Shown here in pieces: positions 8,915 to 56,783 of a stretch of 58,057 nt of DNA (positions are counted from its first letter, which is position 1; each line of letters opens with the position of its first letter). A program made the translations under genes and the position numbers. The notes beneath the pieces were generated by a model that saw only the letters and a list, made by a program, of their open reading frames with translations, was not told where the DNA came from and did not search any database. Source of the DNA: a virus; IMG/VR virus record IMGVR_UViG_3300018914_000025. One strand, given 5' to 3'.

Positions 8915-11900
8915 CTAGTACTCGTCATCTATCTGATCAAAGATCCCGAGCTCGAAGCACTTCGCCACATACGCATGGAATCGGGGCGTTTTCTTGAATC
9001 CTCCTGTTGTCTTGACCACCATCCGCATCTTTGTCAGCAGGTTCACGATCGCCTTTGCCTCTTCTTTCTCAATCGCGAGCATCGCCTCAACGTCGCTGAC
9101 ACCCAGGTAGTTCTGCTGGGCAAACAGCTTGATGAAGTCGTAGAACTTGCCGTCATGCTTCAGCGTTTTCAGTCCACGCATTTCCTGCGTGAAGCGCTCG
9201 TATCGCTCGTCTGTCATTTCTTCCTCGCGGATCGCGAGCCGTGCGTAGTAGTTCAGGCCGCAGCCCGGTGCGTTGTAGATCGACTGCAGGTATGCTTCGA
9301 TGAACTCCACATGCCCCGGCCACACCACAATCCGCTCTCCCGACTCATCCACGCTGTGCGTGAGCGCCGCGAGCGCTACCGCCAGCCGCGCTATCTTGTT
9401 CCGCTGATCGGAAGGCGACACCAGTGGCACGTCGTTTGCGTTGCCGTAGATTTTGGAGAGGTTCGTGGACACCTGCAGGATCCGCTCAATTGAGTCACCC
9501 GCAAACACCACGTCATCCGGTGTCCGGGACCAGGCGAACAGGATATTGTTTTTCAGTGCTTCGGCTGTGAACTTCTGCGGGTAGAACCCCAGCTGCGCGT
9601 TATACTTTTCGGGACCGACGTCCGACGCGCGCATGAAGATCGCGAAGTCAAAACGACGGATGTCCTCGTTATTGAAAATGTCCTTCAGTGACTCTACGCC
9701 GTGCCCGTAGTCCGCCAGGCGCCGCCCCTTCGGCACGTTTCCGGATAGAATCGCCCGCACCCGGCAAGGCGTCTCCGCCGTTACAGCGCGTTTTACTTCG
9801 AGCTTTCCGTCGCTGCGGGCCAGCGTCATTTCGCCGTACTCGTCTTTCGTGATACCGGTATCCTCGTCAATCCAGATCAGCTCCCGGTCTGCCAGCGGCC
9901 AAGCCCCCCACACGATATACCAGGCGCCGGATGCTCCCGACTGCTCCATCTTGTAGGTCAGGCCTGTCCGGCTCGTCGACTCGGCGTTTACCCGCTGACC
10001 CAGCCGCACGAAGTTCATGATCGATTCGATCAGGGCTGACTTTCCGGTTCCTGTGTCGCCCACGATTTTCCCCTCAACCCAGCCCCTGATCGCTGTTGAG
10101 CTCCACGGTACTTTGAACCGCAGCACACTATGATATGTGAGCAGAACACCGAGGAGTGTCTCATCGCGTTCCACGATCCGGGTCACGTTGTACGTCAGGT
10201 CATCGCATAGCGTTTTGAGCTTCTGCTCGATCATTTCAGGGGTGTAGTTCTCCGGCTGGAAGCTCCGCAGCTGAGATTTGATTTCGTCCGTCAGCTGGAA
10301 CGATTCGACCACATCCTGCATCGGGGTCGCGTCTTTTACGATGATCGTCGACTCCTGATTTTTCGGATGCGGGAACACGTAACCGGTGATCTCGTAGTAC
10401 TTGTTTTCGGAGAGGTCGATACCGCCCACGCTGTACACGCGCCGCAGCACGTATTTTCCGGTAGATGGGTTTTCCTCCACCCGATCGGGCTCGGCCATCG
10501 GAATCACCAGCAGCTCCTCGACGTTCGTGGTTTCCACTTGCTCGACGTTGTACTTGTAGCACGACGGGATCCCGGAGATCTCCTTCAGTATCCCTTTGAT
10601 GTTGTCGTCCCCGACTCCGCACATCTGGATCAGCTCACGATCCTGGACACCGAGGTCTTTGTATGCCGTGTGACTCGGAATGTCGTACAGAGGGCAGTGG
10701 GTCTTCTTGCATCCGTCCCGACCCCAGCAGTGGTACTCGATGCGTTTGGTGACGATGTACGGAGTGTGCTTCTTCCCGGCGATCATGACACGGGTTTTGA
10801 TCAGCTTGCCGGTGAGATCCGCGTCACCTGTTTGTGAAAGGTGCAGGTTGATCGGCGCCTCTTCCGTGTCTTTCTTCCGCTTCACACAGGGGCAAAGGTC
10901 GCCGGCGCACGCGACGCGCTCGTACTCGTTGCTCCCGGGTGTTTTGGGGCCGTGCAGGCTCCGGATGAACGCGCAGCCGAATCGGTACTCATTGTCCTTG
11001 GAGTACACCGCGTCCACCACGCTGCGGGTATTGGCGATGCGCTGCTGTTTCTGATAGTGGCTGTTCGCGCTGGTGTGTTTTACGACCCACTCTTCGAGGA
11101 TCTTCAGCGTCTCTTCCTTGCTGTGACCTGCGTCTTTGTAGTAGCAGGCCAACTGCACGGTCGCCTGATTTCGATCCCCTTCCTTCTTCCAGCCTCCGTT
11201 CATGATGTCCTGAACGCATACAGGGGGGACGCCTTTCGTGAAGTGATACTCTTCTTTTTCGTGGCGGGCGTTTGCTGTCGCGGCGACCTCCAGGTACTCA
11301 CCGCGTTTATCTTTATAGAATTCTGCGGCCTTCTCTCGGAGACCGATCAGTTCTTTTCGTTGCTCATCTGTAAAGGGCAGGTCACGACGCGGCGCTTTCG
11401 CCAGCTCTTGGATCTGCTCGATCGTCATGGTGTCGAGTTCGGTTTTGCTCAGTTCGATTTTGTGAAGATTCGTTTTTTGATGCACGCTGTTCGGAAGCCG
11501 CAGCATCCGGGCGGATGTGTAGACCACCATGTCCAGCGAGGTGAGTTCGAGCCGGTGAATCAAGTACCCGGCGATGTGCTTGAAAATCTTGTGCAGGTTG
11601 TTTGATGGTTGAATACCAAAAACGCTGTAACTGATCAGGATGTGGAAGCCTTTGCTTCCTGAGAAGTAAATCTGCATGTCGGACTCTTGGACATCCAGTT
11701 CGTTGAGAAAGAAGTGTACCAGCTTTCGTGCGTCCGCCAGGCTGACAGAAGGATCTTCTGCGTGATCAAGGTCGAAGTACAGGGGGGCGATGAACGCCTC
11801 CCCTTTCTCCCGCACCTTGTTTGCAAAGCGCTGGATGGTAGCGAAGCAGTTGTAGTTGAATGCCACTTTCTGCTGCCACTCGGGAACGGCCGACTTCTCG

Positions 11901-12001
11901 ATCCGCTCCCATTCCCCGTTGCTTTTGCCCATTTGATCCGTAAACCTGACGTCCACGTACTTGAAGTCTTGAAGTTGTGGTTCCTTTTTTGCCCTTGCCA
12001 C
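8915..12001 (-). CDS. Fusion of archaeo-eukaryotic primase (AEP/prim-pol) and MCM-like AAA+ helicase
   Basis: AEP motifs FDLDH and YFSGSKGFHILI; Cys clusters (CAGDLCPC, HCWGRDGCKKTHC); Walker A GDTGTGKS, Walker B LIWIDED, and RRFDF resembling the MCM SRFD arginine-finger motif. Confidence 0.8.
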   Translation of the reverse strand: MARAKKEPQLQDFKYVDVRFTDQMGKSNGEWERIEKSAVPEWQQKVAFNYNCFATIQRFANKVREKGEAFIAPLYFDLDHAEDPSVSLADARKLVHFFLNELDVQESDMQIYFSGSKGFHILISYSVFGIQPSNNLHKIFKHIAGYLIHRLELTSLDMVVYTSARMLRLPNSVHQKTNLHKIELSKTELDTMTIEQIQELAKAPRRDLPFTDEQRKELIGLREKAAEFYKDKRGEYLEVAATANARHEKEEYHFTKGVPPVCVQDIMNGGWKKEGDRNQATVQLACYYKDAGHSKEETLKILEEWVVKHTSANSHYQKQQRIANTRSVVDAVYSKDNEYRFGCAFIRSLHGPKTPGSNEYERVACAGDLCPCVKRKKDTEEAPINLHLSQTGDADLTGKLIKTRVMIAGKKHTPYIVTKRIEYHCWGRDGCKKTHCPLYDIPSHTAYKDLGVQDRELIQMCGVGDDNIKGILKEISGIPSCYKYNVEQVETTNVEELLVIPMAEPDRVEENPSTGKYVLRRVYSVGGIDLSENKYYEITGYVFPHPKNQESTIIVKDATPMQDVVESFQLTDEIKSQLRSFQPENYTPEMIEQKLKTLCDDLTYNVTRIVERDETLLGVLLTYHSVLRFKVPWSSTAIRGWVEGKIVGDTGTGKSALIESIMNFVRLGQRVNAESTSRTGLTYKMEQSGASGAWYIVWGAWPLADRELIWIDEDTGITKDEYGEMTLARSDGKLEVKRAVTAETPCRVRAILSGNVPKGRRLADYGHGVESLKDIFNNEDIRRFDFAIFMRASDVGPEKYNAQLGFYPQKFTAEALKNNILFAWSRTPDDVVFAGDSIERILQVSTNLSKIYGNANDVPLVSPSDQRNKIARLAVALAALTHSVDESGERIVVWPGHVEFIEAYLQSIYNAPGCGLNYYARLAIREEEMTDERYERFTQEMRGLKTLKHDGKFYDFIKLFAQQNYLGVSDVEAMLAIEKEEAKAIVNLLTKMRMVVKTTGGFKKTPRFHAYVAKCFELGIFDQIDDEY

Positions 12002-12738: not shown

Positions 12739-13362
12739 TTATTTTTTGAGAGTAATCAGTTCGGCGTAAGGCAGGGTTTCCATCCAGGCGGCGAAATCGC
12801 GCCACTCCTGCAGGCGGTGCAGCCTCCGGCTGTGGTACATGTTCTTCAGTACCTGGTAGTTTAGGGTGCAGGTTCGGCGGTAGTTGAAGGACTGTGGTAC
12901 ATGCTGAAGCAGCTTTCTCCACTCCGGCGACGGCTTCTTCTTACCTGTCGCCCACCATTCTTCGATTAATTGGTTAAGGTGTTCGATCAATAGTTGTTCT
13001 CGTATTCCTACTGAATCGAAGCTGAAGTCGTCTACCGTCAGATGCCGGCTGCCCATCTTGTGCATTTGTGACGTGCTGTTCTCGACCGTTCCGACTTTGT
13101 AGGTCGCCTGCTCACGCCACCAGTACTCCGGGGCTGTGATGTCCACGCTGACGAGGATCTGCCGCATGAATTTCGCGTGATCGTTTCCAGCACGCGCAAG
13201 TCCCAGGGCGAGCACATAGTCGTTCGGACCAAACTGGAATTCCAAGCCGTTCTCCGTCGGGATATATTGGCTGTCCATTTTGTCCCAAGACTCCCAGCTA
13301 TTCCGCATGCCACGGATCGCGTCGAGCCAGTTGTAGATTTTCAGGTGTTCAAACTGAATCAA
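12739..13362 (-). CDS. ThyX-like (Thy1-fold) protein without the canonical RHRxxS motif, tentative
   Basis: HAKFMRQILVSVDITAPEYWWREQATYKVGTVENSTSQMH parallels the ThyX core block layout, but the RHR/SQRY residues are replaced. Confidence 0.3.
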   Translation of the reverse strand: MIQFEHLKIYNWLDAIRGMRNSWESWDKMDSQYIPTENGLEFQFGPNDYVLALGLARAGNDHAKFMRQILVSVDITAPEYWWREQATYKVGTVENSTSQMHKMGSRHLTVDDFSFDSVGIREQLLIEHLNQLIEEWWATGKKKPSPEWRKLLQHVPQSFNYRRTCTLNYQVLKNMYHSRRLHRLQEWRDFAAWMETLPYAELITLKK

Positions 13363-13377
13363 TCTTTTTCACCCCCT

Positions 13378-14895: not shown

Positions 14896-15404
14896 TCCAC
14901 CACCCCTTTGAGATCGTATGTCGGCTCTGCTCGGCGAAGCCTCGGGATCGCGACCGCCAGGTACTTACCGGTTCGGGAGTGGTGTTCCAGCTCGTCGAGA
15001 GTGATGTACCAGCGCCCTTTCCGCTCCATGTACTTGATCGCTGGGATCAGGCGGATCGCAAACGCTTTGTCGAGCCCTTGCTCCGGATTGTGAAAGCTGA
15101 CGAACACCAGCCCCACATTCCGCTCGATTACTTCGTCGAAGTCGATGAGCCCGCGGACCTGATTCACTCTCAGAAAGGAGAGCTCGAACTTTTTCCCTTT
15201 CGTCCGCTTGTGCTCGGCGAGGATGTTCACGTCCTGCGTGATGATCAGTTCGTCTCCCGGGCGGGTTGTCGCCCCGTCGGGGATCCGCACGCGGTAGCAG
15301 TTGGGGATCTCAAACCAGCTGCGCCGCATTTCTGCCTGGAAGTCCTCGCCACGCTGCCGACGTTCCCGCTGCAGGTTTCGCTGGGTTTGGGTCTTGGGGT
15401 TCAT
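14877..15404 (-). CDS. PD-(D/E)XK-type nuclease (resolvase-like), tentative
   Basis: IITQDVNILAEHKRTKG fits a D..(E)xK nuclease core; sits between the helicase and SbcCD genes. Confidence 0.45.
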   Translation of the reverse strand: MNPKTQTQRNLQRERRQRGEDFQAEMRRSWFEIPNCYRVRIPDGATTRPGDELIITQDVNILAEHKRTKGKKFELSFLRVNQVRGLIDFDEVIERNVGLVFVSFHNPEQGLDKAFAIRLIPAIKYMERKGRWYITLDELEHHSRTGKYLAVAIPRLRRAEPTYDLKGVVECCRYL

Positions 15405-15407
15405 ACC

Positions 15408-15977
15408 CTATCTCCCCGCCAAGAAATTTAGCGTCGCGGCCTGCAGGCTTGCTTTCGCTCGCACGCTTTCACATGCGTCCTTTGTTGCGAACCAGCGATC
15501 ATTCGCCTGCATCGCGGCGACTTCCAGGGCTGCGAGTTGTGCTTCGACTTCTGCCAGCTGACGCCGCTCCTCGGCGCTCGCGTTTCGGCGGTAAGCGTCC
15601 CGCGCCGTCTCATTGGTGAGCGAGACCTTTTCGCCGTTTACGATTGCGTGCGCTTCTTTGCCCTCTCCGCGGATCTTCATGATCGCCTCGGATTCCGTCA
15701 ATTGGATCGCGGCTTCGAGTTGGGTTTTTCGCCGAAGCAGGTCAGCTTTTCCGCCAGACGCTTCAGACCTCAGGCGGCCGGCTTCCAGGATGTCACTGAC
15801 GCTCATATTCAGTTGCTCGAATGTATCACTTAGCTGCTTTGGGTGAATCACCGGTACATACTCGGCCGGGATCTGCCGGCCTGCAGACTGCAGCAGGATG
15901 TCTGCCGCCGCTTTCACTTGCTCGGGACCGTAGGTTTGGATCAGGTCTTGCAGCGCTTCTTTTGGGGATTGCATCAT
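15408..15977 (-). CDS. hypothetical protein
   Basis: 189-aa ORF with a 4-nt overlap to the upstream SbcD gene. Confidence 0.5.
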   Translation of the reverse strand: MMQSPKEALQDLIQTYGPEQVKAAADILLQSAGRQIPAEYVPVIHPKQLSDTFEQLNMSVSDILEAGRLRSEASGGKADLLRRKTQLEAAIQLTESEAIMKIRGEGKEAHAIVNGEKVSLTNETARDAYRRNASAEERRQLAEVEAQLAALEVAAMQANDRWFATKDACESVRAKASLQAATLNFLAGR

Positions 15978-16954
15978 ACCGTCAACCTCATTTCTTCGAT
16001 TTTTTCGAGTGCCAGGCGGACTACGCCGGGCGGCAAACCTTCCTGCTCACCGATCGTCTCGACGATCTGGTTCACGTCCAGCAACACCCGGGCACCGGTC
16101 TGCGTCTGAATCAGCGCGGCGAACTCTTCCATGTGATATTGCCGGGCCTGATCCGCTTCGATCTTACTGCGATCGAGCACTTCGCTGCCGGGCTTCGCGC
16201 TTTTCAGTGGGATTTTCTCCAGGTGCAGCCCCGTCTCTCTGTCGTAGGTGATCAGCAGCACCTGTATGGGCCTCTCAATCTCCTGCACGGACGCTGACAG
16301 GCGGGTCAGGCTGCCAATGTTGGCGAACACCTTGCCGTCCGCTCGGTGGTAAATATCGAACCCCAGATGATCGTGCCCGGTGAGCACCAGGTCGGCTTCC
16401 GTCTTTACGTTCCCGATGTACGTGTACCGGTCAAAAACAACGGGGTCGTGATCGAGCAGCATGCCGTGTGCGACGTGGATCTTGAACGAGTGCGGATTGT
16501 TGTTCTCTGGGCTGTAGCCGTAACCGTCTCGGTCAATCTTGTTCGTGTACGGGGTGAACGTGACCTGCACCTCGTCATTTCTGCCAAAGTACACGGCCTT
16601 CGCCGGGTCGTTGATGACGTGAAACTGCGGTACCAGGCGCTCCAGCAGGTGGAGCGACGTCCGCCAGTAGGTCTCCAGGTTGTAGCTGAAGAGGTCGTGG
16701 TTTCCGGCCGTCGTGTAGATCGGCACCGGGCTCTCCGCGAGCAGGTCCGCGAACTCCAGCAGTACGCTGTTGCTGGTGTCAGGACGGTCCCAGGTGTCTC
16801 CCGGTTCGAGCAGGGCATCCACCTGATGCTCTTTCGCCAGCTGGAAGATCTCCCGCATCTTTGCCTTTACCGCTTCTTTGTAGTCGTCGGTTCGGCTGCG
16901 TGGGCTGGTCCCGCGGAAGTGCGGGTCTCCGAAGTAGAGGAGTTTTACTGTCAT
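15974..16954 (-). CDS. sbcD: SbcD/Mre11-family metallophosphoesterase nuclease
   Basis: Calcineurin-like motifs in order: GDPHF, GDTWD, GNHD, HGM, GHDH. Confidence 0.85.
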   Translation of the reverse strand: MTVKLLYFGDPHFRGTSPRSRTDDYKEAVKAKMREIFQLAKEHQVDALLEPGDTWDRPDTSNSVLLEFADLLAESPVPIYTTAGNHDLFSYNLETYWRTSLHLLERLVPQFHVINDPAKAVYFGRNDEVQVTFTPYTNKIDRDGYGYSPENNNPHSFKIHVAHGMLLDHDPVVFDRYTYIGNVKTEADLVLTGHDHLGFDIYHRADGKVFANIGSLTRLSASVQEIERPIQVLLITYDRETGLHLEKIPLKSAKPGSEVLDRSKIEADQARQYHMEEFAALIQTQTGARVLLDVNQIVETIGEQEGLPPGVVRLALEKIEEMRLTV

Positions 16955-17229
16955 GACACAACCCCCTCACGGAGTTTCCGCCAGTGCTCCGGACTGTGTT
17001 TGCTTGTCTGCTGTACCCAGCCCTTCCCTTCGATGAAATCCTTTTTCCCTGCGTACACTTCGTCAGAATGATCGACATAGGACGGTTCCCCAGGGCAATC
17101 CGTAGTCAGCGATCCTTCAACTAGTCCGCATCTTATACATACCGCAAGGCCGCCGTCACACACGTTGCAGTGAGATTCTTTGCACGTGCCGTGACGTACC
17201 ACAAACTCGCAGGTAAAGTCGTGTTTCAT
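16951..17229 (-). CDS. Cys-rich small protein (putative zinc-binding)
   Basis: 92-aa ORF with CNVCDGGLAVCIRCG...DCPG; 4-nt overlaps on both sides. Confidence 0.5.
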   Translation of the reverse strand: MKHDFTCEFVVRHGTCKESHCNVCDGGLAVCIRCGLVEGSLTTDCPGEPSYVDHSDEVYAGKKDFIEGKGWVQQTSKHSPEHWRKLREGVVS

Positions 17230-17870
17230 ACCGCTGTCACCTCGCTTTTCCCGTTCTTCTGCGTCACTTCCAGCGACACGTCCCCGATCGTTGCCAGGTG
17301 AGCGTTATGCGTGATGAGCACGATCTGACGGCCGAACTTCTCGCTGTACTCCTTCAGGAAGTAGGCGACATTCGGCGCATACTCCTGTGATACATGTTTC
17401 CCTACTTCGTCGAGCATCAACGGCCCCTGAACCCCGGTCAACTCCCCGACCGCCAGCCGAAGCGCGAGGCTCACCACGTCGGCCACCCCGCCTCCCCGGT
17501 CGTAATCCGGCGGCTTCAACTGTGTTCGTACCCCTTCGCTTTCGAGGAAGTACTCAGCGACCGGCTGATTCCCTTTGACGTCGAGCTCGATTTCGAACCG
17601 GTAGTCCTTCCCGAACACGACTGACAGGGCGCTGGTGACGATCTCTTCGATTCGTGTCTTTGCCTGCTGCCGGGCGAAGTCGCTCGTTTTCTGCAAGAGG
17701 ATCTGCACCAGGTCATAAACCCCGAGCTTCTCCTCCGCGAACATCTTTCGCTGCAGGGCGTCCGCTCGCTGCTTCTCCAGCAGTTGTTTCTGCCCTTCCT
17801 TGGCAGCGATCCGCTGGGCTGCTTGTCTGACATCGGCTTTTGCTTTGTCGATGGCGTACATGGGGATCAC
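17226..17870 (-). CDS. SbcC/Rad50 C-terminal ATPase lobe (separate ORF)
   Basis: Signature-like RGGGVADVVSLALRLA, Walker B LMLDEVGKH, H-loop LITHN. Confidence 0.7.
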   Translation of the reverse strand: MIPMYAIDKAKADVRQAAQRIAAKEGQKQLLEKQRADALQRKMFAEEKLGVYDLVQILLQKTSDFARQQAKTRIEEIVTSALSVVFGKDYRFEIELDVKGNQPVAEYFLESEGVRTQLKPPDYDRGGGVADVVSLALRLAVGELTGVQGPLMLDEVGKHVSQEYAPNVAYFLKEYSEKFGRQIVLITHNAHLATIGDVSLEVTQKNGKSEVTAV

Positions 17871-18130
17871 TCCCCTTTCTTTGCCAGCATGTCCTGGACA
17901 ATAAGCTGGTTACAAAGATGTGTAAACTGAAGAAAATTTTTTTGATCTCCGGTCAGCTTGTTGTAAACCATCCCGCAACCCTTCACCAATCCGATAAAAA
18001 ACTCGGTTGCGTCGACCTCATCCAAGGTAAACTGATGATTTTCACTATCAGGGTCAAACAGGTCCATAAGGGCGTTATTTACAGCAAAAGCATACATCTC
18101 GTTTTTCGTAATGTTTTGCATATGATTCAC
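17867..18130 (-). CDS. hypothetical protein inserted between the SbcC pieces
   Basis: 87-aa ORF that is not coiled coil and is visibly more A/T-rich than its flanks; 4-nt overlaps. Confidence 0.45.
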   Translation of the reverse strand: MNHMQNITKNEMYAFAVNNALMDLFDPDSENHQFTLDEVDATEFFIGLVKGCGMVYNKLTGDQKNFLQFTHLCNQLIVQDMLAKKGE

Positions 18131-18360
18131 ACCCTCGGAATGAGACTTTCCACTCGCTGCAGATCCTGCTCGACCTGAGACTGCAGCTGTGCGATTACGT
18201 CCCCGATCGTATCCGGGGTCACGCCTTCTGCCATCATCTGCTGCTCGACTTCCTTCAGCTGTGCTTCGGCGTTCGCTTTTTGGGTTTCGGCTACCGTTTT
18301 TGCGGTGGCCGCTTTTTGCAGGTTGGTTTTCGCCAGATTGATTCGCATATTAATGTCCAC
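18127..18360 (-). CDS. Coiled-coil protein (possible returning coiled-coil arm of SbcC)
   Basis: 77-aa heptad-rich ORF immediately after the zinc-hook-bearing ORF. Confidence 0.45.
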   Translation of the reverse strand: MDINMRINLAKTNLQKAATAKTVAETQKANAEAQLKEVEQQMMAEGVTPDTIGDVIAQLQSQVEQDLQRVESLIPRV

Positions 18361-19768
18361 GGTGATTACCTCCCGTTATTGGTTGTTCGCAGATCGGGCA
18401 CACGGTCATGCCCGCCCAGATCTCGTCGAGTTCTTTTTGCGCTTGTGCTGCCGAAACGTCCGCAGCCTGAAGATGCCGCTCCGCGCTTTGCAGCGCGCTT
18501 TGTTTCGTGACGTACACGGTTCGTAGGGTACGCAATGATTCGAGGCGATTGCTGCTGGATTCCGCTTGCTGCAGCAGGCTCTCCGCTTCCGGGATCTTGC
18601 TGAACATTTCGACCCATTCACGCTGACGCTGTAACGCCGCGCGCGCCTCCGTGTGTCGTACCTGCAGGGTTCTCAGATTTGAAATGCGTTCCGCTGAACC
18701 CCCGACACTGTGAAGGACCGCTTCCGCAGCGTCCAAGTCCTTAGTCGCATGAAGAACGCCAGCCGCCCTACTTACATCATCTGAATGTTTTTGATATGAT
18801 GAGCGTAAGATATTAAGAGTAGACAACCTCTTGCTGTTTGCTTCGATGATCGACACCTCTGCTGCAATGTTGTCTACTTCCCGGTACCTGTCCAGTTCGT
18901 CGGAAAGCCTTGTTACTGTGGCGGTAACCTTTCCGTACTGGCGATAAAGGTCCAGCAGCGTGTCGTAGCGCTTCTGGGCTTTTTCTATGTCCTGCAGGTC
19001 TTCTTCCAAGTCTGGGATTACTGCCAGCTCTTCCAGGCGTCCGCCCAGCTCCTCCAGCAGTCTCGTCAGGTTCCAGTGCGTGATCTTGAAGTCCGAAAGC
19101 CGTTTGCTCTTGTCGTACGCCTTGTCGATCTCACTGACCAGGTACTCGCAGGCCTCCAGCTGTTGTTTGAGCACTTCCAGGTCGTTGAACTCCTGCAGCT
19201 GTGCATCGATCCGCTCGATGTCCTTCTCTGCCTGCGAGCGCTCCTGACGCGCTGCGTAGGTATCCTTTGCGACCGATTTTGTTGCCAGGTCGACCACTTC
19301 CGTACCGGCCAGCTTGCCGAGGATCTTGGCACCCGCACTCGCTGTCTCAGAGATCAAGAACGGCGCCTCCAGCTGGAACGCAAAATTCAACGCTGTTTCG
19401 AAGTCCCCGAATGTCTGCTTGGTGATCCCGAGAGCCTGCTTTACTTCCTCTGGTACTTCCGCCTTTTCGAAGGGCTCCGCGATCGTCGACAACTGATAGG
19501 TCGTCTTTCCTTTTCGGCGGGTCTTTGTTACCGTGACGCCGGTGTCCAGCAGGATCTCTACCTTCGCCTCCCCTACAGCCTCGTTCACAAACGCCTCCCC
19601 GGAGGGCTCCCCGAATGCTACCCATTTGAGCGCCCGGAGTATCGCCGTCTTCCCGCTGTCAGACGGTCCCGTGATCACGTTCAACCCTGGGCACAGCCGG
19701 ATGAAACTCGAAACATGTGACTGGAACCCCGTGATTCGGATTTCTTCAATCTGCGGCAAGGATCTCAC
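18350..19768 (-). CDS. sbcC: SbcC/Rad50 N-terminal ATPase lobe plus coiled coil, ending at the zinc hook
   Basis: Walker A ITGPSDSGKTAILRAL, a long coiled coil, and a CPIC (CxxC hook) 12 residues before the stop. Confidence 0.8.
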   Translation of the reverse strand: MRSLPQIEEIRITGFQSHVSSFIRLCPGLNVITGPSDSGKTAILRALKWVAFGEPSGEAFVNEAVGEAKVEILLDTGVTVTKTRRKGKTTYQLSTIAEPFEKAEVPEEVKQALGITKQTFGDFETALNFAFQLEAPFLISETASAGAKILGKLAGTEVVDLATKSVAKDTYAARQERSQAEKDIERIDAQLQEFNDLEVLKQQLEACEYLVSEIDKAYDKSKRLSDFKITHWNLTRLLEELGGRLEELAVIPDLEEDLQDIEKAQKRYDTLLDLYRQYGKVTATVTRLSDELDRYREVDNIAAEVSIIEANSKRLSTLNILRSSYQKHSDDVSRAAGVLHATKDLDAAEAVLHSVGGSAERISNLRTLQVRHTEARAALQRQREWVEMFSKIPEAESLLQQAESSSNRLESLRTLRTVYVTKQSALQSAERHLQAADVSAAQAQKELDEIWAGMTVCPICEQPITGGNHRGH

Positions 19769-23423: not shown

Positions 23424-23660
23424 ATGCCCTATAGAGTAGGCCGGTGCCTGCTTGGATTGCGTCTCGCAGAGGCTGGGATGACCCCTGTACAACTCGCTGA
23501 AAAGGTTGGCATGAAACTTCCACAGATCTCGGCTTACATAAACAACAAACGGGTCATGTCCCTGCAGAACGCCCTGTCGATCGCGAGCGCCGTCGGCTGT
23601 CGTGTTGAAGATCTCTACGAGTTAGAGTACGTCAGCCCCAGAACCAAGCAGGAACCCTAA
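23424..23660 (+). CDS. XRE-family HTH protein
   Basis: LGLRLAEAGMTPVQLAEKVGMKLPQISAYINNKRVMSLQNALSIASAVG; GGGAGG RBS. Confidence 0.75.
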   Translation: MPYRVGRCLLGLRLAEAGMTPVQLAEKVGMKLPQISAYINNKRVMSLQNALSIASAVGCRVEDLYELEYVSPRTKQEP

Positions 23661-23714
23661 AGAGCAGCCGTTTGCGGCTGACTCCGGCCTACAGGTTAAC
23701 CAACCCGTTAACAC

Positions 23715-23895
23715 AAAATATATAATGCTCGGGATTTTGGGAGGGGGTACCTCCCCTGCACTCATTGTACCGTGTACAGGTGTATTGAAGAACCCCCCTC
23801 ACGAATCAGAGCTATTATATATTATATATATTATTAAATATAAAAATAAAATTATATATTATATAGTATATATCTATTACATGTAAAGTTCTTAC
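23715..23895. repeat. Imperfect inverted repeat, copy A (partner 56521..56701)
   Basis: Hand alignment with the reverse complement of 56521-56701. Shared blocks: AAAATATATAAT(C)GCTC-GATTTTGG-GGGGGTACC, GAACCCCCC, TTATATATTATATATA, TATATTATATAGTATATA, GTAAAG. Confidence 0.8.
23814..23880. other. ~67-bp almost pure A/T tract (candidate DNA-unwinding element)
   Basis: Read directly: ATTATATATTATATATATTATTAAATATAAAAATAAAATTATATATTATATAGTATATATCTATTAC. Confidence 0.6.
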
Positions 23896-23929
23896 TACAT
23901 ACAAGACACTGTACACAAGGGGTGCTGGG

Positions 23930-23990
23930 TTATCCACAATATCCACAACCGCTCTCGCTGAAAATAAAAAAGTTGTCCACAGGTGGACAA
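23930..23990. promoter_or_regulatory. DnaA-box cluster (4 boxes)
   Basis: TTATCCACA (23930, perfect consensus) abuts ATATCCACA (23939). TTGTCCACA (23973) faces TTGTCCACC on the other strand (23982-23990), together forming TTGTCCACAGGTGGACAA. Confidence 0.7.
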
Positions 23991-24290
23991 CTGGTAGAAT
24001 CTTCTGTTAGAATGAAGCCATCGAAAATTGAACGGGAAATGAGAAAGCCGACCGGTCTGATAAAGGGCTCCTACCCCCTAAATCAGCACCCGGACCACTG
24101 CTCGAACCAGTGACCAGGCTTTCCGATCGGCTACTTCTGTATCTATTTTACCCATTTTTCGTGATAGATACAAGGTTTTTGCCTCGGAAAAAGTATGTCA
24201 TTTTACGACATAGTGCCTAGTCACGCGACGCTGCATGTGCAGCTCTTGGGTGGCTAGGCTTTTTCTTTCCCCAGAAAGGGAGAGTAGAAC

Positions 24291-25232
24291 ATGTTGCAAC
24301 AACCACGCAAGCTCAAACGATTGGTCATCAAGGAGGAATTCCTGCAGCTCACCGGTGATTACATATCGGCGATCATCCTGCACCAATTCCTCTACTGGTC
24401 GAACTACGTCTACGAGGCTGACAAACTGGCGCTCGCTCAGTGGGAAAAAGAAAAAGCCGGCGGGCGCGAAACGAAAAAGCCCGAGATGCGGAACGGCTGG
24501 GTCTGGAAGAGCGCAAAGGAAATGAACGAGGAACTGTTGGAGATCGCCAGTGACAAAACGATCGAGCGCCGGATCAAAGGTTTGATCGAGCTCGGTGTGC
24601 TGGAGACCAGAAAAAATCCGAATAACCAGTGGGACAAGACCCTACAGTACCGGGTGCTGATCCCTGAACTTCAAAGGAAGCTGCAAGAGCTGGGTTACGC
24701 GCTGGAAGGATACCCGCTGCTCGTAGAATCTGCGCCGTTACCGAATCGTCAGGATGACGAATCGATTCAGAACGATGTTGACGAATCGATTGGACAGGAT
24801 GACGAATCAGTCGGACAACCTGTCTCCCCCATTGGACAAAATGACGAATCAATTGGACAGAATGACGAAGCAATAACAAATATTACTTCAAAAAGAACTA
24901 CAAAAGAGTCTTTCAAAAAATCTTTTGATGATGAATTAAATAAAAAAGAGGGGCAGGCCCCTCCCCCTGTTCGGCAGCTGAACGAAAAAATCATAAGCGC
25001 CTTTGAGGAAGTCGCGTTTACCCGTGGTTTTCCGCGAAAGTTCTTCCCGCAGGTTCGAGAAGCCTTGCTGCAGGCTGATTTCCTGCATGAATTCAGCGTG
25101 CTGTCTACAGCCTTAAACAAAACGATAAAAGCGATCGAGTCTGGATCCTGCACCGACCCGGCGGCCTACCTCCTAAAAGTTCTGGATAGCGATTACGATT
25201 CGTTCCGCCGATTGATGGGAGATCAGGTATAG
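24291..25232 (+). CDS. Putative replication initiator/organiser (winged-helix-like N-terminus, DESIGQ repeat linker)
   Basis: First gene after the DnaA-box/AT-rich element; carries internal 21-bp DNA iterons; N-terminus (..IERRIKGLIELGVLETRKNP..) looks like a wHTH. No catalytic motif recognised. Confidence 0.5.
   Translation: MLQQPRKLKRLVIKEEFLQLTGDYISAIILHQFLYWSNYVYEADKLALAQWEKEKAGGRETKKPEMRNGWVWKSAKEMNEELLEIASDKTIERRIKGLIELGVLETRKNPNNQWDKTLQYRVLIPELQRKLQELGYALEGYPLLVESAPLPNRQDDESIQNDVDESIGQDDESVGQPVSPIGQNDESIGQNDEAITNITSKRTTKESFKKSFDDELNKKEGQAPPPVRQLNEKIISAFEEVAFTRGFPRKFFPQVREALLQADFLHEFSVLSTALNKTIKAIESGSCTDPAAYLLKVLDSDYDSFRRLMGDQV
24756..24880. repeat. Iteron array inside the initiator-like gene (GACGAATCrrTyGGACA)
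   Basis: Copies start at 24756, 24780, 24801, 24843 and (degenerate) 24864, with a half-copy at 24831. Spacing is 24/21/42/21 bp. Confidence 0.75.
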
Positions 25233-30064: not shown

Positions 30065-31405
30065 ATGAATATACTCAATTTTTTGTTCATTGCAGTGCCA
30101 GAAGGGCTAGTTTCAATCGCGCTGGGGATGTCCGTGTTCAACATGTCGGTAAGACAAAACGTGAAGGGGTGGCTTGCTGCAGGTGTTTTGTTCGGGGGCG
30201 GCAGCTTCACTCTGACAGCGATGCACGTTCCATATGAGCCGAAAATCTTCACGTTGTTCCTGTACTTGTGCCTGCTGGTGTACATCCTCGTCGTACGCAA
30301 GGTGTGGCTTGCTGTATTGATCTCCTGTACGGCGTACGCCGCGGTGAATGCCGCTGAGTTCATCATCCTGGAGGCGTTCAACGTATTCCGGATCAGCCTC
30401 GATGCGATCCTGGCGAATCCCGTGTACCTGTATTTGGCTGTATGGTCTTATCTCTTCATCCTACTCACCGTGACAATCGTTCTCCGAAAACTCCGCTTCG
30501 ACCTGCAAAACCTGTTTCCCAAGAAAGAGATCAACCGCTATCTGCTGTGGATGGTGTTGGCCGGGGGAGTGGAATTTTTCATCCTGTCAGTCCTTCTTAC
30601 TCGATACTTCCTGCAGCAAACGAACACATCAAGCATGCTCACAGTACTGAACGTCCCGGTACTGCTTGTAACGAGTTTTGTGCTCTTCATCGCGTTGATC
30701 TTCCTGTTCCGCAAGTACCTGATGCTGACCGTCGACAGGGCCGTGGAAGAGGCCGAGGCTCCGTACACGAAAAACCTGACCGATCTCTCTATTGCAGTCC
30801 GATCGATCAAACACGACTCCATGTCGCACTACCAGACGATCCTGGGATTCATCAAGCTGCGGCGGTATGACATGGTGGAAGAATACATACGGCACCTCGC
30901 TGACGAGGCCCGTGACCTGATCAAGATTGTGCAGGAGGTAAAAAACCCGGTTGTCGCAGCGCTGTTGTACGGGAAAATGCAACAGTTTACAGCTAATCAG
31001 ATCGACTTCCAGGTCCGGATACAAGAGGGCATTTCCCAGCTGGAGGGCTGGCGCGACATCGACATCGCCAAGGTGCTGGGGAACCTGCTGGATAACGCCG
31101 TGATGGCCGCTCTGAAGGTCGACGAGAGTGTCCGGTATATCCGGATGGAATGGGGCGTTGTCGGAGGGGATGAGTACCTGTACATCGAAAACAGTGGGCC
31201 GACGATCGGCCCCGATCAACTGGACCGGATCTTCGACCTCGGCTATACGACCCGCGAGTCGGGAAGGGGAGGGGTAGGCCTGGCTGTCGTAAAGGCCGTC
31301 GTCACCAAGTACAAGGGGACCGTCAAAGTTCGCTCGGAAGACGGACTGACGAGCTTCACAATCACAGTCCCAGCTGGGGAGAAAACAAAAACCGCTTCGG
31401 CATAG
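30065..31405 (+). CDS. AgrC/ComD-like (HPK10-type) membrane sensor histidine kinase
   Basis: About 6 predicted TM helices; H-box SIKHDSMSHYQTILGFI, N-box LGNLLDNAVMAA, G-box GRGGVGLAVVKAVV. Start at MNILNF after GCGGAGG (ORF track starts at 29993). Confidence 0.9.
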   Translation: MNILNFLFIAVPEGLVSIALGMSVFNMSVRQNVKGWLAAGVLFGGGSFTLTAMHVPYEPKIFTLFLYLCLLVYILVVRKVWLAVLISCTAYAAVNAAEFIILEAFNVFRISLDAILANPVYLYLAVWSYLFILLTVTIVLRKLRFDLQNLFPKKEINRYLLWMVLAGGVEFFILSVLLTRYFLQQTNTSSMLTVLNVPVLLVTSFVLFIALIFLFRKYLMLTVDRAVEEAEAPYTKNLTDLSIAVRSIKHDSMSHYQTILGFIKLRRYDMVEEYIRHLADEARDLIKIVQEVKNPVVAALLYGKMQQFTANQIDFQVRIQEGISQLEGWRDIDIAKVLGNLLDNAVMAALKVDESVRYIRMEWGVVGGDEYLYIENSGPTIGPDQLDRIFDLGYTTRESGRGGVGLAVVKAVVTKYKGTVKVRSEDGLTSFTITVPAGEKTKTASA

Positions 31406-31420
31406 GCCGGGCGGTTTTCT
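31388..31420. terminator. Bidirectional terminator between convergent units
   Basis: AAACCGC...GCGGTTT hairpin with T-runs on both strands (TTTTCTTC on plus, TTTTTGTTTTC on minus). Confidence 0.65.
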
Positions 31421-33978: not shown

Positions 33979-34239
33979 TTACGCGGTCGGGTAAGGCCCG
34001 ATCTTCGCTACAGTCTGATCATACTCTTGCTGGTTGATCCAGCTGTTTGCCCAGGCCTTATCCAGTTGTATGGTACGATTCTCGGCGGTCGCGTACGGGT
34101 CAATCGTGAAGTTGTCTGCAGCGTACTGCTTGATCTCTTCGTGGTACGTGGTGTTGACATCTGAGAACCGCTTTGTGCCGTCTACATAGATTTGAAAGGC
34201 GTACCCGCGCACCATCCGCTGTCGAACTGTTTCTGCCAT
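33979..34239 (-). CDS. hypothetical protein (post-fibre small gene)
   Basis: Start at MAETVRQ after AAGGAGG (ORF track extends to 34308). Confidence 0.5.
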   Translation of the reverse strand: MAETVRQRMVRGYAFQIYVDGTKRFSDVNTTYHEEIKQYAADNFTIDPYATAENRTIQLDKAWANSWINQQEYDQTVAKIGPYPTA

Positions 34240-34258
34240 TCCGCATTCCTCCTTTTGT

Positions 34259-53992: not shown

Positions 53993-54694
53993 TTATGTCT
54001 TGTTATGTAATTCTCTCCAGCACCAGAAGGTAGAAAATTTTACCGCGTTGTTCGCGCTCCTGCGGTTGTTGCTGCACCAATATACATACTGCTCGTACTG
54101 GTCCGGTGCTATTCCGTGAAGGTTTGCGAGGTACTCGATCAATACCTGCCACCTCTCGGAATCTATCTTACGGGCGACCTCCGGCTTCTTTACCCACTCA
54201 AAAGGGTTTTGATTGTCCTTATCCATGTTTAACAAACTGGACATCGGAACCATGTTCCCTTTATAGGTACCACCGTGCCCCCAGGATACCGGTATGAAGT
54301 GATCAAACTCGATGTCGATCTTCTCCCCGGTAAGCGCACAGCCGCCGAAGTGGTCGTATATTTCTTTAGCTACTTTCTGGTTCCAATAGTAAGGCAGTAA
54401 ACTCTCTGATTTGGACCGTTTCGCTTTTGTAAAACCTCTTTGTACGGCTTTATCGGCGCCGTGCGCTGAATCCTGCAAAGTTTCCGCATACGCCAGTGCA
54501 TCCATCTCTCGACCGAAAGCTATATACTCCGGATCATCTGAAAAACTTAGCCGATCTACCGATTTTTGCAGTTGGGCCATTTCATACTCATGTAAGCCGG
54601 CTTTTACGCTTTCTAGTCCGTACCGTTTTACTAATTCAAGAAATGCAGCAAATTCGGGCGAGTCAACCGAAGGCCGAGATCTTCGATTCATCAC
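53993..54694 (-). CDS. HNH endonuclease
   Basis: EFDHFIPVSWGHGGTYKGNMVPMSSLLN (H-N-H core) in a 233-aa protein next to terL. Confidence 0.8.
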   Translation of the reverse strand: MMNRRSRPSVDSPEFAAFLELVKRYGLESVKAGLHEYEMAQLQKSVDRLSFSDDPEYIAFGREMDALAYAETLQDSAHGADKAVQRGFTKAKRSKSESLLPYYWNQKVAKEIYDHFGGCALTGEKIDIEFDHFIPVSWGHGGTYKGNMVPMSSLLNMDKDNQNPFEWVKKPEVARKIDSERWQVLIEYLANLHGIAPDQYEQYVYWCSNNRRSANNAVKFSTFWCWRELHNKT

Positions 54695-55248
54695 TTACCG
54701 CCTATCTTTTTGATGTATCTGTACAAGGTGGCTTTGCTTATGCCGGTAGCCTCCACGATCTCGGGAACGCTCATGTTTCCAGCGTTGTATAGTTGGACCG
54801 CGGCCTCAATTTTGCGCTTGTCTGCTTTTGGTCTTCCGCCCACACGCCCGCGTGCGCGCGCCGCTTTCAGACCAGCCTGGGTGCGTTCGGCAATGATGTC
54901 ACGTTCCAGCTCGGCGATGCTCGCCATCGTTCGGAAGAAGAACTTTCCGACTGGCGTGGTGGTGTCGATGCCATCGACCAGGGAGATAAATTCAATACCG
55001 TTCTCCTCCAGCTGTTTCGTCAATTCCAGCAGTTTGAAAGTGGAGCGTCCCAGACGGTCGAGCTTGTAGACAACAAGCGCGTCACCCGGCCGTAATTGAT
55101 CGAGCAGCCGTGCCAGTTCCGGTCGATCGTCTCGCTTGCCGCTCATCTTTTCGGTGAAGATTTTCTCACACCCGGCCGCCTTCAGAGCATCCAGCTGTGA
55201 ATCCAGATTCTGGTCCAAGGTACTGACCCGAGCATAACCGAATTTCAT
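54691..55248 (-). CDS. Small serine recombinase (resolvase/invertase family)
   Basis: MKFGYARVSTLDQ catalytic-serine motif, DRLGRS, and a C-terminal HTH (VPEIVEATGISKATLYRYI); about 185 aa. Confidence 0.9.
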   Translation of the reverse strand: MKFGYARVSTLDQNLDSQLDALKAAGCEKIFTEKMSGKRDDRPELARLLDQLRPGDALVVYKLDRLGRSTFKLLELTKQLEENGIEFISLVDGIDTTTPVGKFFFRTMASIAELERDIIAERTQAGLKAARARGRVGGRPKADKRKIEAAVQLYNAGNMSVPEIVEATGISKATLYRYIKKIGGK

Positions 55249-55344
55249 AGCGCCCAACCCCCAACCCTATATTTGTTGAGTTAAGAGTATCAAAAATGTT
55301 ACGTTTTGGCAACTATGAAATGAGACTATTTTTTGATTCTAAAA

Positions 55345-56105: not shown

Positions 56106-56504
56106 TCAAGGGTTTTCGCTACAGATTTTATCATAGACGGCCTTAACAGCCAGGGCCTTGCCGTTTACGTGCCGGTAGATGTGGTCGATCGCCTGATTAC
56201 AGCGTGTGCGGTACTTCTGCTCCGACATCCCCAGCGCTTGCAAGGTCTTCTTCAGAGGCGGTTTGATGATCCAGCGTGCCTTCACCACCAGTTGCAACTC
56301 CCGGGGCAGGGCCTTGATCGCTGCGTCCAGCATGATCTTGTTCAGGTGTGTGCTGGTAACGCCGTCGTACGGCTTCGGACCGCTGTTACACGGAAGCGCA
56401 TCGACAGGAGAGTCTCGCATCTGCAGCGATTGGTAGTTCTCCAGCCAGAAACGCACAACCTTCTTCGAAACATAACCCTCTACACGTATAGACAGAAAAA
56501 CCAC
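56106..56504 (-). CDS. ArpU/RinA-like late-gene transcriptional activator (sigma region-4-like), tentative
   Basis: 132 aa immediately upstream of terS; LPRELQLVVKARWI...TLQALGMSEQKYRTRCNQAIDHI resembles ArpU-family proteins. Confidence 0.5.
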   Translation of the reverse strand: MVFLSIRVEGYVSKKVVRFWLENYQSLQMRDSPVDALPCNSGPKPYDGVTSTHLNKIMLDAAIKALPRELQLVVKARWIIKPPLKKTLQALGMSEQKYRTRCNQAIDHIYRHVNGKALAVKAVYDKICSENP

Positions 56505-56520
56505 CTCCTGTAAGTAAAGT

Positions 56521-56701
56521 ACTCTTTACTTAATAGTATTATATACTATATAATATAATATTTATAATTTATAATATATAATATTATATATAATATATAA
56601 GAGAGAGTTTTCGCAGGGGGGGTTCATCATTACACACACTGTACGTGTACTTTGTACTAGGTGGGTACCCCCCTCCAAAATCGGAGCGATTATATATTTT
56701 T
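56521..56701. repeat. Imperfect inverted repeat, copy B (partner 23715..23895), includes a ~75-bp A/T tract
   Basis: Its reverse complement aligns by hand with 23715-23895; the A/T tract spans about 56523-56600. Confidence 0.8.
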
Positions 56702-56783
56702 TCTCTCAACCGCTGCAAACCACCGAAACCCGCCTACGATTGGAACGTATTAACAGGAAGTCCAATTAAAGGGGGTTTTCTCT

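What the first reader, a model, noticed from the sequence alone, without database searches (positions are those of the whole stretch)
23715..23895. ~180-bp imperfect inverted-repeat pair (23715-23895 and 56521-56701), each ending in a ~70-bp A/T tract
The reverse complement of 56521-56701 aligns with 23715-23895 through conserved blocks: AAAATATATAAT(C)GCTC-GATTTTGG-GGGGGTACC, GAACCCCCC, TTATATATTATATATA, TATATTATATAGTATATA and GTAAAG. The copies lie about 32.6 kb apart one way round the circle and about 25 kb the other. Each A/T end points into a major unit. Copy A leads to the DnaA boxes and the initiator/maintenance genes (plus strand). Copy B leads to the ArpU-like gene, terS and the structural genes (minus strand). 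Those two units converge at the bidirectional terminator at 31388-31420. Possible roles include duplicated promoter/UP or architectural elements, a second (lytic) unwinding element, or recombination sites for the small serine recombinase at 54691-55248. In the last case about 33 kb could invert. None of these is established.
Basis: seen in the sequence. Interest (0 to 1): 0.62.

Follow-up and report, generated by a model that had tools for sequence, protein, structure and literature searches.

The report
Conserved inverted palindrome–A/T-tract pair in phage
The two inverted ~190-bp repeats are real, and the same rigidly built pair (a three-block palindrome next to a pure A/T tract) brackets the late genes in all 13 related Bacillus/Brevibacillus phages examined, so it is a lineage-wide DNA signal, most likely a pair of replication-origin-like sites, not a site for the nearby recombinase.

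Summary
Copy A (23715-23895, +) and copy B (56521-56702, -) align at 78% identity. This is far above dinucleotide-preserving shuffles (z=19.7 for the non-A/T half, 6.6 for the A/T half).

The window is a circular 57.9-kb Brevibacillus-type phage-plasmid of the phBC6A51 / vB_BboS-125 group, which encodes an AEP-primase–MCM helicase and a family-A DNA polymerase. All 13 genomes of this group that I examined carry exactly two copies. The copies are always inverted, 23-33 kb apart, with their A/T tracts facing the arc that holds the ArpU-like gene and the late genes.

Each copy has a fixed geometry: ATATATAA, 22 nt to the end of a G4-7 run (then TA), 45-48 nt between the runs, then TA and a C4-7 run, 22 nt, TTATATAT, then an 80-115-nt A/T tract on one side only. 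Only three blocks are dyad-symmetric. The spacers between them are equal in length but not complementary. This looks like a two-fold protein-binding site on duplex DNA, not a selected hairpin.

The small serine recombinase is absent from relatives, and no inversion isomers were seen. No σA promoter or canonical terminator is conserved.

Best reading (about 0.4): paired origin-like elements, each a binding site plus an unwinding element, for the phage replisome. SPP1 oriL/oriR is the closest precedent. Main rival (about 0.3): a transcription boundary module. The function has not been tested.

The parts
23715..23726 (+). Copy A, left outer block (AAAATATATAAT)
   Evidence: It pairs in register with the right outer block in 84% of cells across 24 instances.
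23727..23742 (+). Copy A, left spacer with T-rich middle block (GATTTTGG at 23733-23740)
   Evidence: The middle block (i=10-12) is 72% complementary.
23743..23749 (+). Copy A, G-core GGGGGTA
   Evidence: The four inner G:C positions are invariant in 24/24 instances.
23750..23790 (+). Copy A, central non-palindromic spacer (41 nt; contains GTACAG)
   Evidence: The spacer between GTA and the C-core is 41-44 nt in the 13 instances listed.
23791..23798 (+). Copy A, C-core AACCCCCC
23815..23822 (+). Copy A, right outer block TTATATAT (22 nt after the first C)
23804..23887 (+). Copy A, A/T tract (at least 93% A/T). It faces the DnaA boxes (23930-23947, 23973-23991) and rep (24291-25232).
23858..23887 (-). 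Copy A, σ70-like promoter-like site pointing outward (TTTACA-18-TATAAT, 11/12)
Evidence: It is not conserved in relatives.
56689..56702 (-). Copy B, left outer block (AAAAAATATATAAT)
56666..56673 (-). Copy B, G-core GGGGGGTA
56625..56665 (-). Copy B, central spacer (41 nt; contains GTACAG)
56616..56624 (-). Copy B, C-core AACCCCCCC
56593..56600 (-). Copy B, right outer block TTATATAT
56523..56611 (-). Copy B, A/T tract, facing the ArpU-like gene
56512..56554 (+). Copy B, distal palindromes (GTAAAGTACTCTTTAC at 56514-56529; AGTATTATATACT at 56535-56547) and an outward promoter-like site (TTTACT-18-TATAAT, 56525-56554)
56106..56504 (-). ArpU-like late-regulator candidate (phrog_23784; weak σ region-4-like match) directly downstream of copy B
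8915..12001 (-). AEP primase–MCM helicase (BcMCM homologue, 65-71% identical in all relatives); candidate trans-acting partner
54691..55257 (-). Small serine recombinase; not a conserved partner of the pair

Best explanation
The two repeats are the two copies of a cis-acting DNA element that defines the phBC6A51 / vB_BboS-125 group of temperate phages and phage-plasmids.

Each copy has two parts. The first is a ~103-bp two-fold-symmetric site: ATATATAA, a T-rich block and a G4-7TA block on each arm, around a 45-48-bp asymmetric centre. The second is an 80-115-bp pure A/T tract on one side.

I read each copy as an origin-like unit. An oligomeric phage replication protein would bind the symmetric site. 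The best candidate is the AEP-primase–MCM helicase, or a partner encoded in the same conserved early arm. The A/T tract would be the stretch that melts. Because the copies are inverted, each DNA strand carries one copy in a given sense.

This arrangement suits two schemes. In one, forks start inward from each copy, or each copy primes the strand displaced by a fork from the other. In the other, as proposed for SPP1, one copy fires and the other stalls the fork. That would trigger the switch to recombination-dependent concatemer synthesis, using the Holliday-junction resolvase and SbcCD-like nuclease that the phage encodes.

In this window the plasmid rep/DnaA-box module was inserted next to copy A's A/T tract and may share it as its unwinding element.

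Shown here: anatomy, conservation, copy number, orientation, and co-occurrence with the replisome. Inferred: protein binding, melting, and any origin or barrier activity.
For: 1. The pair is universal in the group. There are exactly two inverted copies in the window, G001-G008, vB_BboS-125, phBC6A51, PHBA67-T and B. velezensis plasmid p3. The reversed-pattern control gave 0.

2. The geometry is rigid. ATATAW lies 22 nt from the last G in 20/23 instances. The last G to first C distance is 45-48 nt. Complementarity is confined to three blocks (93%, 72%, 84%), with spacers at chance level (28-32%). The outer block drops to 18-23% when the register is shifted by 1. This pattern fits dyad-symmetric recognition of duplex DNA, not selection for a stable hairpin.

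3. Neither strand folds consistently better than the other.

4. In the seven genomes scanned (window, G003-G008), the tracts beside the elements are the only A/T tracts (at least 93% A/T over 60 nt or more). G005's second tract falls just under the cut-off. The two tracts are close in length within most genomes.

5. The primary sequence of the blocks is conserved across phages whose late genes are only 22-34% identical. The best-conserved proteins are the replisome: primase–MCM 65-71%, PolA 54-65%.

6. Orientation follows the element, not local transcription. In vB_BboS-125 all genes are on one strand, yet the copies are inverted (PMC6375668).

7. The related plasmid HD3.3A shares rep and the rep leader but lacks the primase–MCM. 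It also lacks the element.

8. BcMCM, the 69%-identical homologue from phBC6A51, primes on the template T36-CCTG-T20 (PMC3273815). On the strand where the centre is T-rich in most relatives (not in this window), 18/23 centres carry CTG.

9. There is a precedent. SPP1 has two origins, each with repeats and an A/T-rich unwinding element, and fork stalling at the second has been proposed (PMC6316719, PMC3485210). This group encodes a Holliday-junction resolvase and SbcCD-like proteins.
Against: GC skew follows gene strand only and shows no break at the elements.

Copy 1 always lies 20-75 nt upstream of the ArpU-like gene. The ArpU-like gene and the primase–MCM occur in exactly the same phages. 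So linkage to the replisome cannot be separated from linkage to the late regulator.

The CTG motif varies in position, and the instances are not independent.

The centres of the window's own copies are not A/T-rich.

No initiator with a known origin-binding domain was identified.

Two unidirectional origins facing each other would leave the early arc to be replicated some other way.
Confidence: 0.4

Rival explanations
1. A transcription boundary or regulatory module. Both copies bind the same phage regulator, for example the ArpU-like σ4-like protein. The A/T tract carries or potentiates promoters for the units that begin beside the element: ArpU plus the late genes at copy 1; int, rep/par, the RHH-ParM operon or the recombinase at copy 2. 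The element also insulates the late arc from read-through.
For: A transcription unit starts beside every copy: the ArpU-like gene at copy 1 in 13/13 genomes; int in G003/G004; rep in the window; the RHH gene in G005-G008 and vB_BboS-125; the recombinase in phBC6A51. The ArpU-like gene has no other obvious promoter region. Genome-specific palindromes that look like operators sit in or beside the A/T tracts and occur only at the two elements. The window has σ70-like hexamers conserved in both copies. The AAGTAAAG..CTTTACTT palindrome of copy B also overlaps the -35 of the RHH-gene promoter in vB_BboS-125.
Against: No σA-like promoter is conserved at the element in relatives, in either direction. 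The window's promoter-like sites point away from ArpU and rep. In genomes where all genes share one strand, the two boundaries are crossed by RNA polymerase in the same direction, yet the copies are inverted. In those genomes copy 2 has no gene on its A/T side, and vB_BboS-125 already has an annotated terminator after the holin gene. Even so, the full architecture and the tract length are kept. The invariant G-core, the fixed 22-nt and 45-48-nt spacings and the non-pairing symmetric spacers are not what a terminator or leader hairpin needs.
Confidence: 0.3
2. Recombination sites. Crossing-over between the inverted copies flips the 25-33-kb arc, either as a switch or, as in the yeast 2-micron plasmid, to turn theta replication into a multimer-producing mode. 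The enzyme would be the small serine recombinase in this window, or the phage's general recombination enzymes.
For: The repeats are inverted and split the circle into two arcs. Within each genome the two copies are more alike than orthologous copies between genomes (centres 65% identical within the window against 40-51% between genomes), and their A/T tracts are close in length. This implies gene conversion between copies over evolutionary time. In this window an origin-like DnaA-box region abuts one repeat. The phages encode a Holliday-junction resolvase and SbcCD-like proteins.
Against: The small serine recombinase is not conserved with the pair. All 13 genomes, and every assembly of this phage checked across a copy, are in the same isomer, with ArpU next to the end of the early arm. 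The longest perfect matches between the window's copies are about 16-18 nt, which is short for homologous exchange. The element is far larger and differently built than hix/gix/res sites.
Confidence: 0.08
3. Architectural or silencing sites. A nucleoid-associated protein that prefers A/T DNA, or a phage protein, binds both copies and bridges them. This would make the late arc a separate loop that is kept silent in the plasmid or prophage state.
For: The two A/T tracts are unique in each genome scanned. They face inward and bracket the late genes in the circular form. The two copies are kept alike.
Against: In integrated prophages of the G003 type, attP lies inside the arc, so the bracket is broken in the lysogen. 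Nothing identifies a bridging protein. The precise dyad site is unnecessary for generic A/T binding.
Confidence: 0.1

Closest known systems
Bacillus phage SPP1 oriL / oriR (PMC6316719, PMC3485210)
   Same: A Bacillus siphovirus with two origin sequences of similar build, each with initiator-binding repeats and an A/T-rich unwinding element. They lie far apart on the circle, and one sits in a late intergenic region. A/T islands are the strongest compositional feature of the genome. The second site has been proposed to stall the fork and trigger recombination-dependent concatemer synthesis, using a phage Holliday-junction resolvase.
   Different: The SPP1 repeats are direct AB boxes bound by gp38, and the replisome uses a DnaB-type helicase with host polymerases. 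Here the site is a tripartite dyad with G/C cores. The replisome is an AEP-primase–MCM with PolA. The copies are strictly inverted and bracket the late genes. No binding or origin activity has been shown here.
Viral and archaeal origins for SF3/MCM-type helicases (SV40 core origin; archaeal ORB repeats with G-strings; PMC4010727 for the archaeal case; SV40 from my own knowledge)
   Same: These origins have inverted, G-rich recognition repeats of fixed geometry, combined with an A/T-rich unwinding stretch and an MCM-class or SF3 hexameric helicase.
   Different: In archaea the A/T unwinding region lies between the inverted ORBs, which are bound by Orc1/Cdc6. Here the pure A/T tract is outside the dyad, on one side, and no Orc1/Cdc6 homologue was seen among the proteins scanned. 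The resemblance is a lead, not a test.
Lambda nutL/nutR and HK022 putL/putR (my own knowledge)
   Same: Two related copies in opposite orientation at the heads of two transcription units, each a linear box followed by a hairpin.
   Different: Those act as RNA and must be transcribed in the box-to-hairpin direction. Here copy 2 is antiparallel to transcription in several genomes. The 'hairpin' has large symmetric non-pairing spacers and a 41-44-nt centre. Rfam finds nothing.
Hin/Gin/Cin invertase sites and res sites of small serine recombinases (my own knowledge)
   Same: Inverted repeats in a replicon that encodes a small serine recombinase.
   Different: Those sites are about 26-34 bp (res about 120 bp with three subsites), lie next to the recombinase gene and travel with it. 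Here the recombinase is 1.3 kb from copy B, is absent from relatives that keep the pair, and no isomers are seen.

Membership tests
Recombination sites of a small serine recombinase (invertase/resolvase) | The sites co-occur with the recombinase gene across relatives | tested here: not met
   PF00239 is absent from G003, G004 and G005, which all keep the pair. G006/G007 carry only large integrase-type enzymes.
Recombination sites of a small serine recombinase (invertase/resolvase) | Both orientations of the intervening segment are found | tested here: not met
   All 13 genomes and the independent assemblies of this phage show the same isomer.
Intrinsic (Rho-independent) terminator | G+C-rich stem, loop of 3-8 nt, U-run directly after the stem | tested here: not met
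   The terminator scan finds none at either copy. The centre is 41-44 nt. The nearest U-rich run is about 14-17 nt from the core, and only in the outward sense.
σ70/σA promoter with UP element | -35 and -10 hexamers at 16-18 nt, conserved in position across relatives | tested here: not met
   The window has outward sites scoring 11/12 and 10/12 at the same relative position in both copies. Among the 24 instances from other genomes, only two isolated 10/12 sites appear, and neither is at a conserved position.
Structured RNA (Rfam families; nut/put-like antitermination RNA) | Match to a curated model, or helices kept by compensatory change with a consistent transcribed strand | tested here: not met
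   There is no Rfam hit at gathering score, and only one chance-level hit at E=1. Neither strand folds better. The spacers within the 'stem' are symmetric and unpaired. Copy 2 is antiparallel to transcription in vB_BboS-125 and G005-G008.
Phage replication origin of the 'binding repeats + A/T-rich unwinding element' kind | Conserved repeated or symmetric recognition sequence of fixed geometry | tested here: met
Phage replication origin of the 'binding repeats + A/T-rich unwinding element' kind | Adjacent A/T-rich stretch that is the easiest to melt in the genome | tested here: met
   The tracts beside the elements are the only ones with at least 93% A/T in the seven genomes scanned.
Phage replication origin of the 'binding repeats + A/T-rich unwinding element' kind | Bound by the replicon's initiator; supports initiation in vivo or in vitro | not testable with these tools
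   Needs EMSA or footprinting, marker-frequency analysis, 2D gels or a plasmid origin assay.
Phage replication origin of the 'binding repeats + A/T-rich unwinding element' kind | Co-occurs with its replication proteins | tested here: inconclusive
   The element is present wherever the primase–MCM is present and absent from plasmid HD3.3A, which lacks it. However, the ArpU-like gene has the same distribution.

The most novel reading that the evidence does not exclude
The pair is a strand-specific origin system for an archaeo-eukaryotic-type primase–MCM / PolA replisome in bacteria, with one initiation site per DNA strand. Each site would consist of a dyad loading site, a CTG priming motif at the centre of the template strand (pyrimidine-rich in most relatives) and a one-sided unwinding tract ahead of the 3'-5' helicase. 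Each copy would prime the strand displaced by the fork from the other, as at mitochondrial OH/OL. Alternatively, one copy would act as a programmed fork barrier that converts theta replication into concatemer synthesis. This would also give BcMCM, a long-studied enzyme with no known origin, its natural substrate.
Probability: 0.2. Interest if true: 0.8.

Novelty: new variant of a known kind. Interest (0 to 1): 0.62.

Why it matters
The phBC6A51-type primase–MCM (BcMCM) is a biochemical model for MCM helicases. I found no described origin or cis element for it. The BcMCM paper I searched uses only generic templates such as M13 ssDNA and oligonucleotides (PMC3273815). The vB_BboS-125 genome paper does not mention the element (PMC6375668).

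A 103-bp site with invariant cores, present exactly twice per genome, gives a concrete DNA substrate to test for loading, priming or fork arrest.

The pair also marks the two borders of the late-gene cassette. That cassette differs greatly between phages that share the same early arm. The elements may therefore explain how whole late modules are exchanged.

For annotation, the motif ATATAW-N22-G|-N45-48-|C-N22-WTATAT followed by an A/T tract is a simple signature of this phage and phage-plasmid group.

Tried and rejected
- **Rfam.** A gathering-score scan of the whole window and an E-value scan of 23650-24320 found nothing usable.
- **Phage DNA searches.** The repeat region and the late arm gave no match. 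An exact-motif scan of IMG/VR gave 0. The same kind of scan of species-representative genomes gave 16 chance hits, none in Bacillales.
- **Relatives found through rep or the ArpU-like protein alone in IMG/VR.** None. An alignment-based query was needed.
- **Loose pattern over 401 Bacillales genomes.** Hits were at control level, with only G002 real, so the element is rare outside this phage group. In IMG/VR about 10% of the matches to the stricter pattern were real elements.
- **GC and AT skew.** It follows gene strand only and says nothing about replication direction.
- **Fold energies of the two strands.** No consistent preference.
Rejected, because the gene is not found in relatives.
- **Immunity operators.** The genome-specific palindromes are not repeated at the cI/cro switch.
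- **FtsK KOPS/SRS, chi, parS, cos/pac, telomere-resolvase site.** Considered from memory. Rejected on sequence or on copy-number and orientation logic. Not tested further.
- **The look-up of sequencing runs.** It was closed, so no read-level test for isomers, transcription starts or depth profiles could be run.
- **Earlier scan notes searched by sequence.** Nothing similar.

Full report
**1.

The two stretches read as described. The repeat finder reports five overlapping inverted pairs between exactly these two places. The G/C-containing motif GATTTTGGNNGGGGGTACC occurs only at these two places even with three mismatches allowed (0.1 expected).

Against dinucleotide-preserving shuffles, the local alignment score has z=19.7 for the half without the A/T tract and z=6.6 for the A/T half. 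The contig closes on itself (127-bp terminal overlap), so the genome is a 57,930-bp circle.

**2. What the replicon is**

The window is JGI metagenome contig Ga0193610_1000100. The same phage appears in ENA and Logan assemblies. Its features are:
- terS, portal and other structural genes on the minus strand;
- a ParM/Alp7A-type partition ATPase, an FtsK-like protein, an AgrC-like kinase and a DnaD-like rep behind DnaA boxes on the plus strand;
- an early arm encoding an AEP-primase–MCM helicase fusion, a family-A DNA polymerase, a DEAD-box helicase, SbcCD-like proteins and a Holliday-junction resolvase.

The primase–MCM is 69-71% identical to those of Bacillus phage vB_BboS-125, prophage phBC6A51 (the source of the biochemically studied BcMCM) and PHBA67-T.

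**3. The pair is a hallmark of the whole group**

Homologues of the ArpU-like gene (43-50% identity; phrog_23784) were fetched from IMG/VR, species genomes and a plasmid. Wherever enough upstream sequence was held, each had the same module upstream.

A pattern search of the complete records found exactly two copies, inverted, 23-33 kb apart, in G001 and G003-G008. The reversed-pattern control gave zero. The same holds for:
- vB_BboS-125, phBC6A51 and PHBA67-T;
- Sutcliffiella horikoshii, where the second copy is on another contig;
- B. velezensis plasmid p3, where the second copy is at 34167-34343.

That makes 13 of 13 genomes.

The Brevibacillus plasmid HD3.3A shares the rep gene, its leader and the regulator genes. 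It has neither the element, nor the primase–MCM, nor the ArpU-like gene.

In the seven genomes scanned, the only A/T tracts (at least 93% A/T over 60 nt or more) are those beside the elements. G005's second tract falls just under the cut-off. Within most genomes the two tracts are close in length. In the circular form both tracts face the arc that holds the ArpU-like gene and the late genes.

**4. Anatomy**

I anchored 24 instances on the inner ends of the G-run and C-run and compared the two arms position by position. Complementarity is confined to three blocks:

| Region | Positions | Watson-Crick |
|---|---|---|
| Core | 0-5 | 93% |
| Spacer | 6-9 | 28% (chance level) |
| Middle T-rich / A-rich block | 10-12 | 72% |
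| Spacer | 14-21 | 32% (chance level) |
| Outer block ATATATAA / TTATATAT | 22-29 | 84% (18-23% if the register is slid by one) |

ATATAW ends 22 nt before the last G in 20 of 23 instances. The last G and the first C are 45-48 nt apart. The centre is not palindromic. In most relatives it is A-rich on the strand that runs towards the A/T tract, whatever the local direction of transcription. The window's own centres are not A/T-rich.

A hairpin under selection for pairing would not keep symmetric 4-nt and 8-nt unpaired spacers of fixed length. A two-fold symmetric protein-binding site on duplex DNA would. Neither strand folds consistently better as RNA.

Further palindromes specific to each genome lie in or beside the A/T tract, in both copies and nowhere else in the genome.

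**5. What the flanks say**

Copy 1 always sits 20-75 nt upstream of the ArpU-like gene. The context of copy 2 varies:
- between cI and int, co-oriented with both (G003, G004);
- between the last late gene and a divergent ribbon-helix-helix gene that leads to ParM, antiparallel to all local genes (G005-G008, vB_BboS-125);
- next to the recombinase gene (phBC6A51, PHBA67-T);
- between an XRE gene and the DnaA-box/rep module (this window).

vB_BboS-125 has all its genes on one strand (PMC6375668), yet its copies are inverted. It also has an annotated terminator between the holin gene and copy 2. So the inverted arrangement is a property of the DNA elements themselves, not a by-product of divergent transcription.

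**6.

*Recombinase sites.* The small serine recombinase is not conserved with the pair. All genomes and assemblies show one isomer. This option is disfavoured. However, the two copies within a genome are more alike than orthologues between genomes, so occasional gene conversion between them is likely.

*Promoter/UP.* The window has promoter-like hexamers conserved in both copies. They point outward through the tract, and nothing comparable is conserved in relatives.

*Terminator.* Not met.

*Known RNA.* None.

*Unwinding or architectural element.* Compatible with everything seen.

**7. Most likely mechanism**

I favour, at about 0.4, a pair of origin-like units made of a dyad binding site plus a one-sided unwinding tract, serving the conserved phage replisome. 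The reasons are:
- sequence-specific, geometry-specific conservation that tracks the most conserved proteins;
- independence from the direction of transcription;
- the unique A/T tracts;
- the SPP1 precedent of two origins with A/T-rich unwinding elements, the second proposed to stall the fork and trigger recombination-dependent concatemer synthesis (PMC6316719, PMC3485210);
- the presence of a Holliday-junction resolvase and SbcCD-like genes here.

One speculative refinement follows from the biochemistry. BcMCM primes on a T-rich template containing CCTG (PMC3273815). On the strand that would be the template, 18 of 23 centres carry CTG, and in most relatives that strand is T-rich. An MCM moving 3'-5' on that strand would enter the A/T tract first. 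Because the copies are inverted, each would lie on the strand displaced by a fork from the other.

The main rival, at about 0.3, is a shared transcription-control module, since a transcription unit starts beside every copy. The primase–MCM and the ArpU-like gene have identical distributions, so comparative data cannot separate the two readings.

**8. Limits**

No reads could be examined. GC skew is uninformative. Nothing here shows binding, melting, initiation, pausing or transcription. The instances are phylogenetically related, so the counts are not independent events.

Noticed in passing
window 24015-24290: The 270-nt untranslated leader between the DnaA-box promoter and rep is 71.6% identical to Brevibacillus sp. 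HD3.3A plasmid NZ_CP085875, with no CDS under it. It folds into a shared structure that ends in a terminator-like hairpin (GCCTAGTCAC...GTGGCTAGGCTTTTTCT) just before the rep RBS. It is a candidate attenuator or antisense-RNA target controlling rep.
   Followed up: partly
window 23973-24013: The perfect palindrome TTGTCCACAGGTGGACAA (two facing DnaA-box-like 9-mers) overlaps a promoter-like site (TGGACA-18-TAGAAT with a TG extension). The same arrangement is kept in the HD3.3A plasmid. rep transcription is probably gated by DnaA.
   Followed up: partly
window 7839-8903: A σ70-family protein (regions 2 and 4 plus an extra HTH) sits between PolA and the primase–MCM. No homologue was detected in six related genomes, so it is an insertion specific to this phage.
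   Followed up: partly
window 53993-55257: A small serine recombinase and an HNH/endonuclease VII-like ORF are wedged between terS and terL. Neither was detected in the relatives checked. Their target is unknown.
   Followed up: partly
L086 (vB_BboS-125 ~40,020-40,060); L037, L032, L034-L036 upstream of copy 1: Three or four tandem ~10-bp iteron-like units (for example GACGGAATAC GGCCGAATAT GACGGAATTC) lie 30-40 nt outside the box of copy 1 in several relatives. They are not at copy 2 and are not obvious in this window. They could be binding sites for a packaging or regulatory protein.
   Followed up: no
window 56512-56531; L084 (vB_BboS-125 ~9,790-9,815): The palindrome AAGTAAAG-N-CTTTACTT at the distal end of copy B's A/T tract recurs as a perfect 12+12 palindrome over the -35 of the ribbon-helix-helix gene promoter in vB_BboS-125. 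This suggests an operator shared across distant members.
   Followed up: no
window early arm 2594-19768 versus late arm 31421-56000: Early-arm proteins are 41-71% identical to relatives and syntenic. Late-arm proteins are mostly undetectable or 22-34% identical, and the packaging genes downstream of ArpU differ between members. The two elements therefore bracket an exchangeable late-gene cassette.
   Followed up: partly
window 57420-57650: A free-standing 76-aa FtsK-gamma (KOPS-reading) domain protein is encoded near copy B. It is not found in relatives.
   Followed up: no
L030, L031 (Logan contigs of ArpU-like homologues): Short-read contigs break 55-86 nt upstream of the ArpU-like gene, and L030 starts inside an A/T tract. 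The tract is evidently an assembly breakpoint, so the element will often be missing from fragmentary viral contigs.
   Followed up: no
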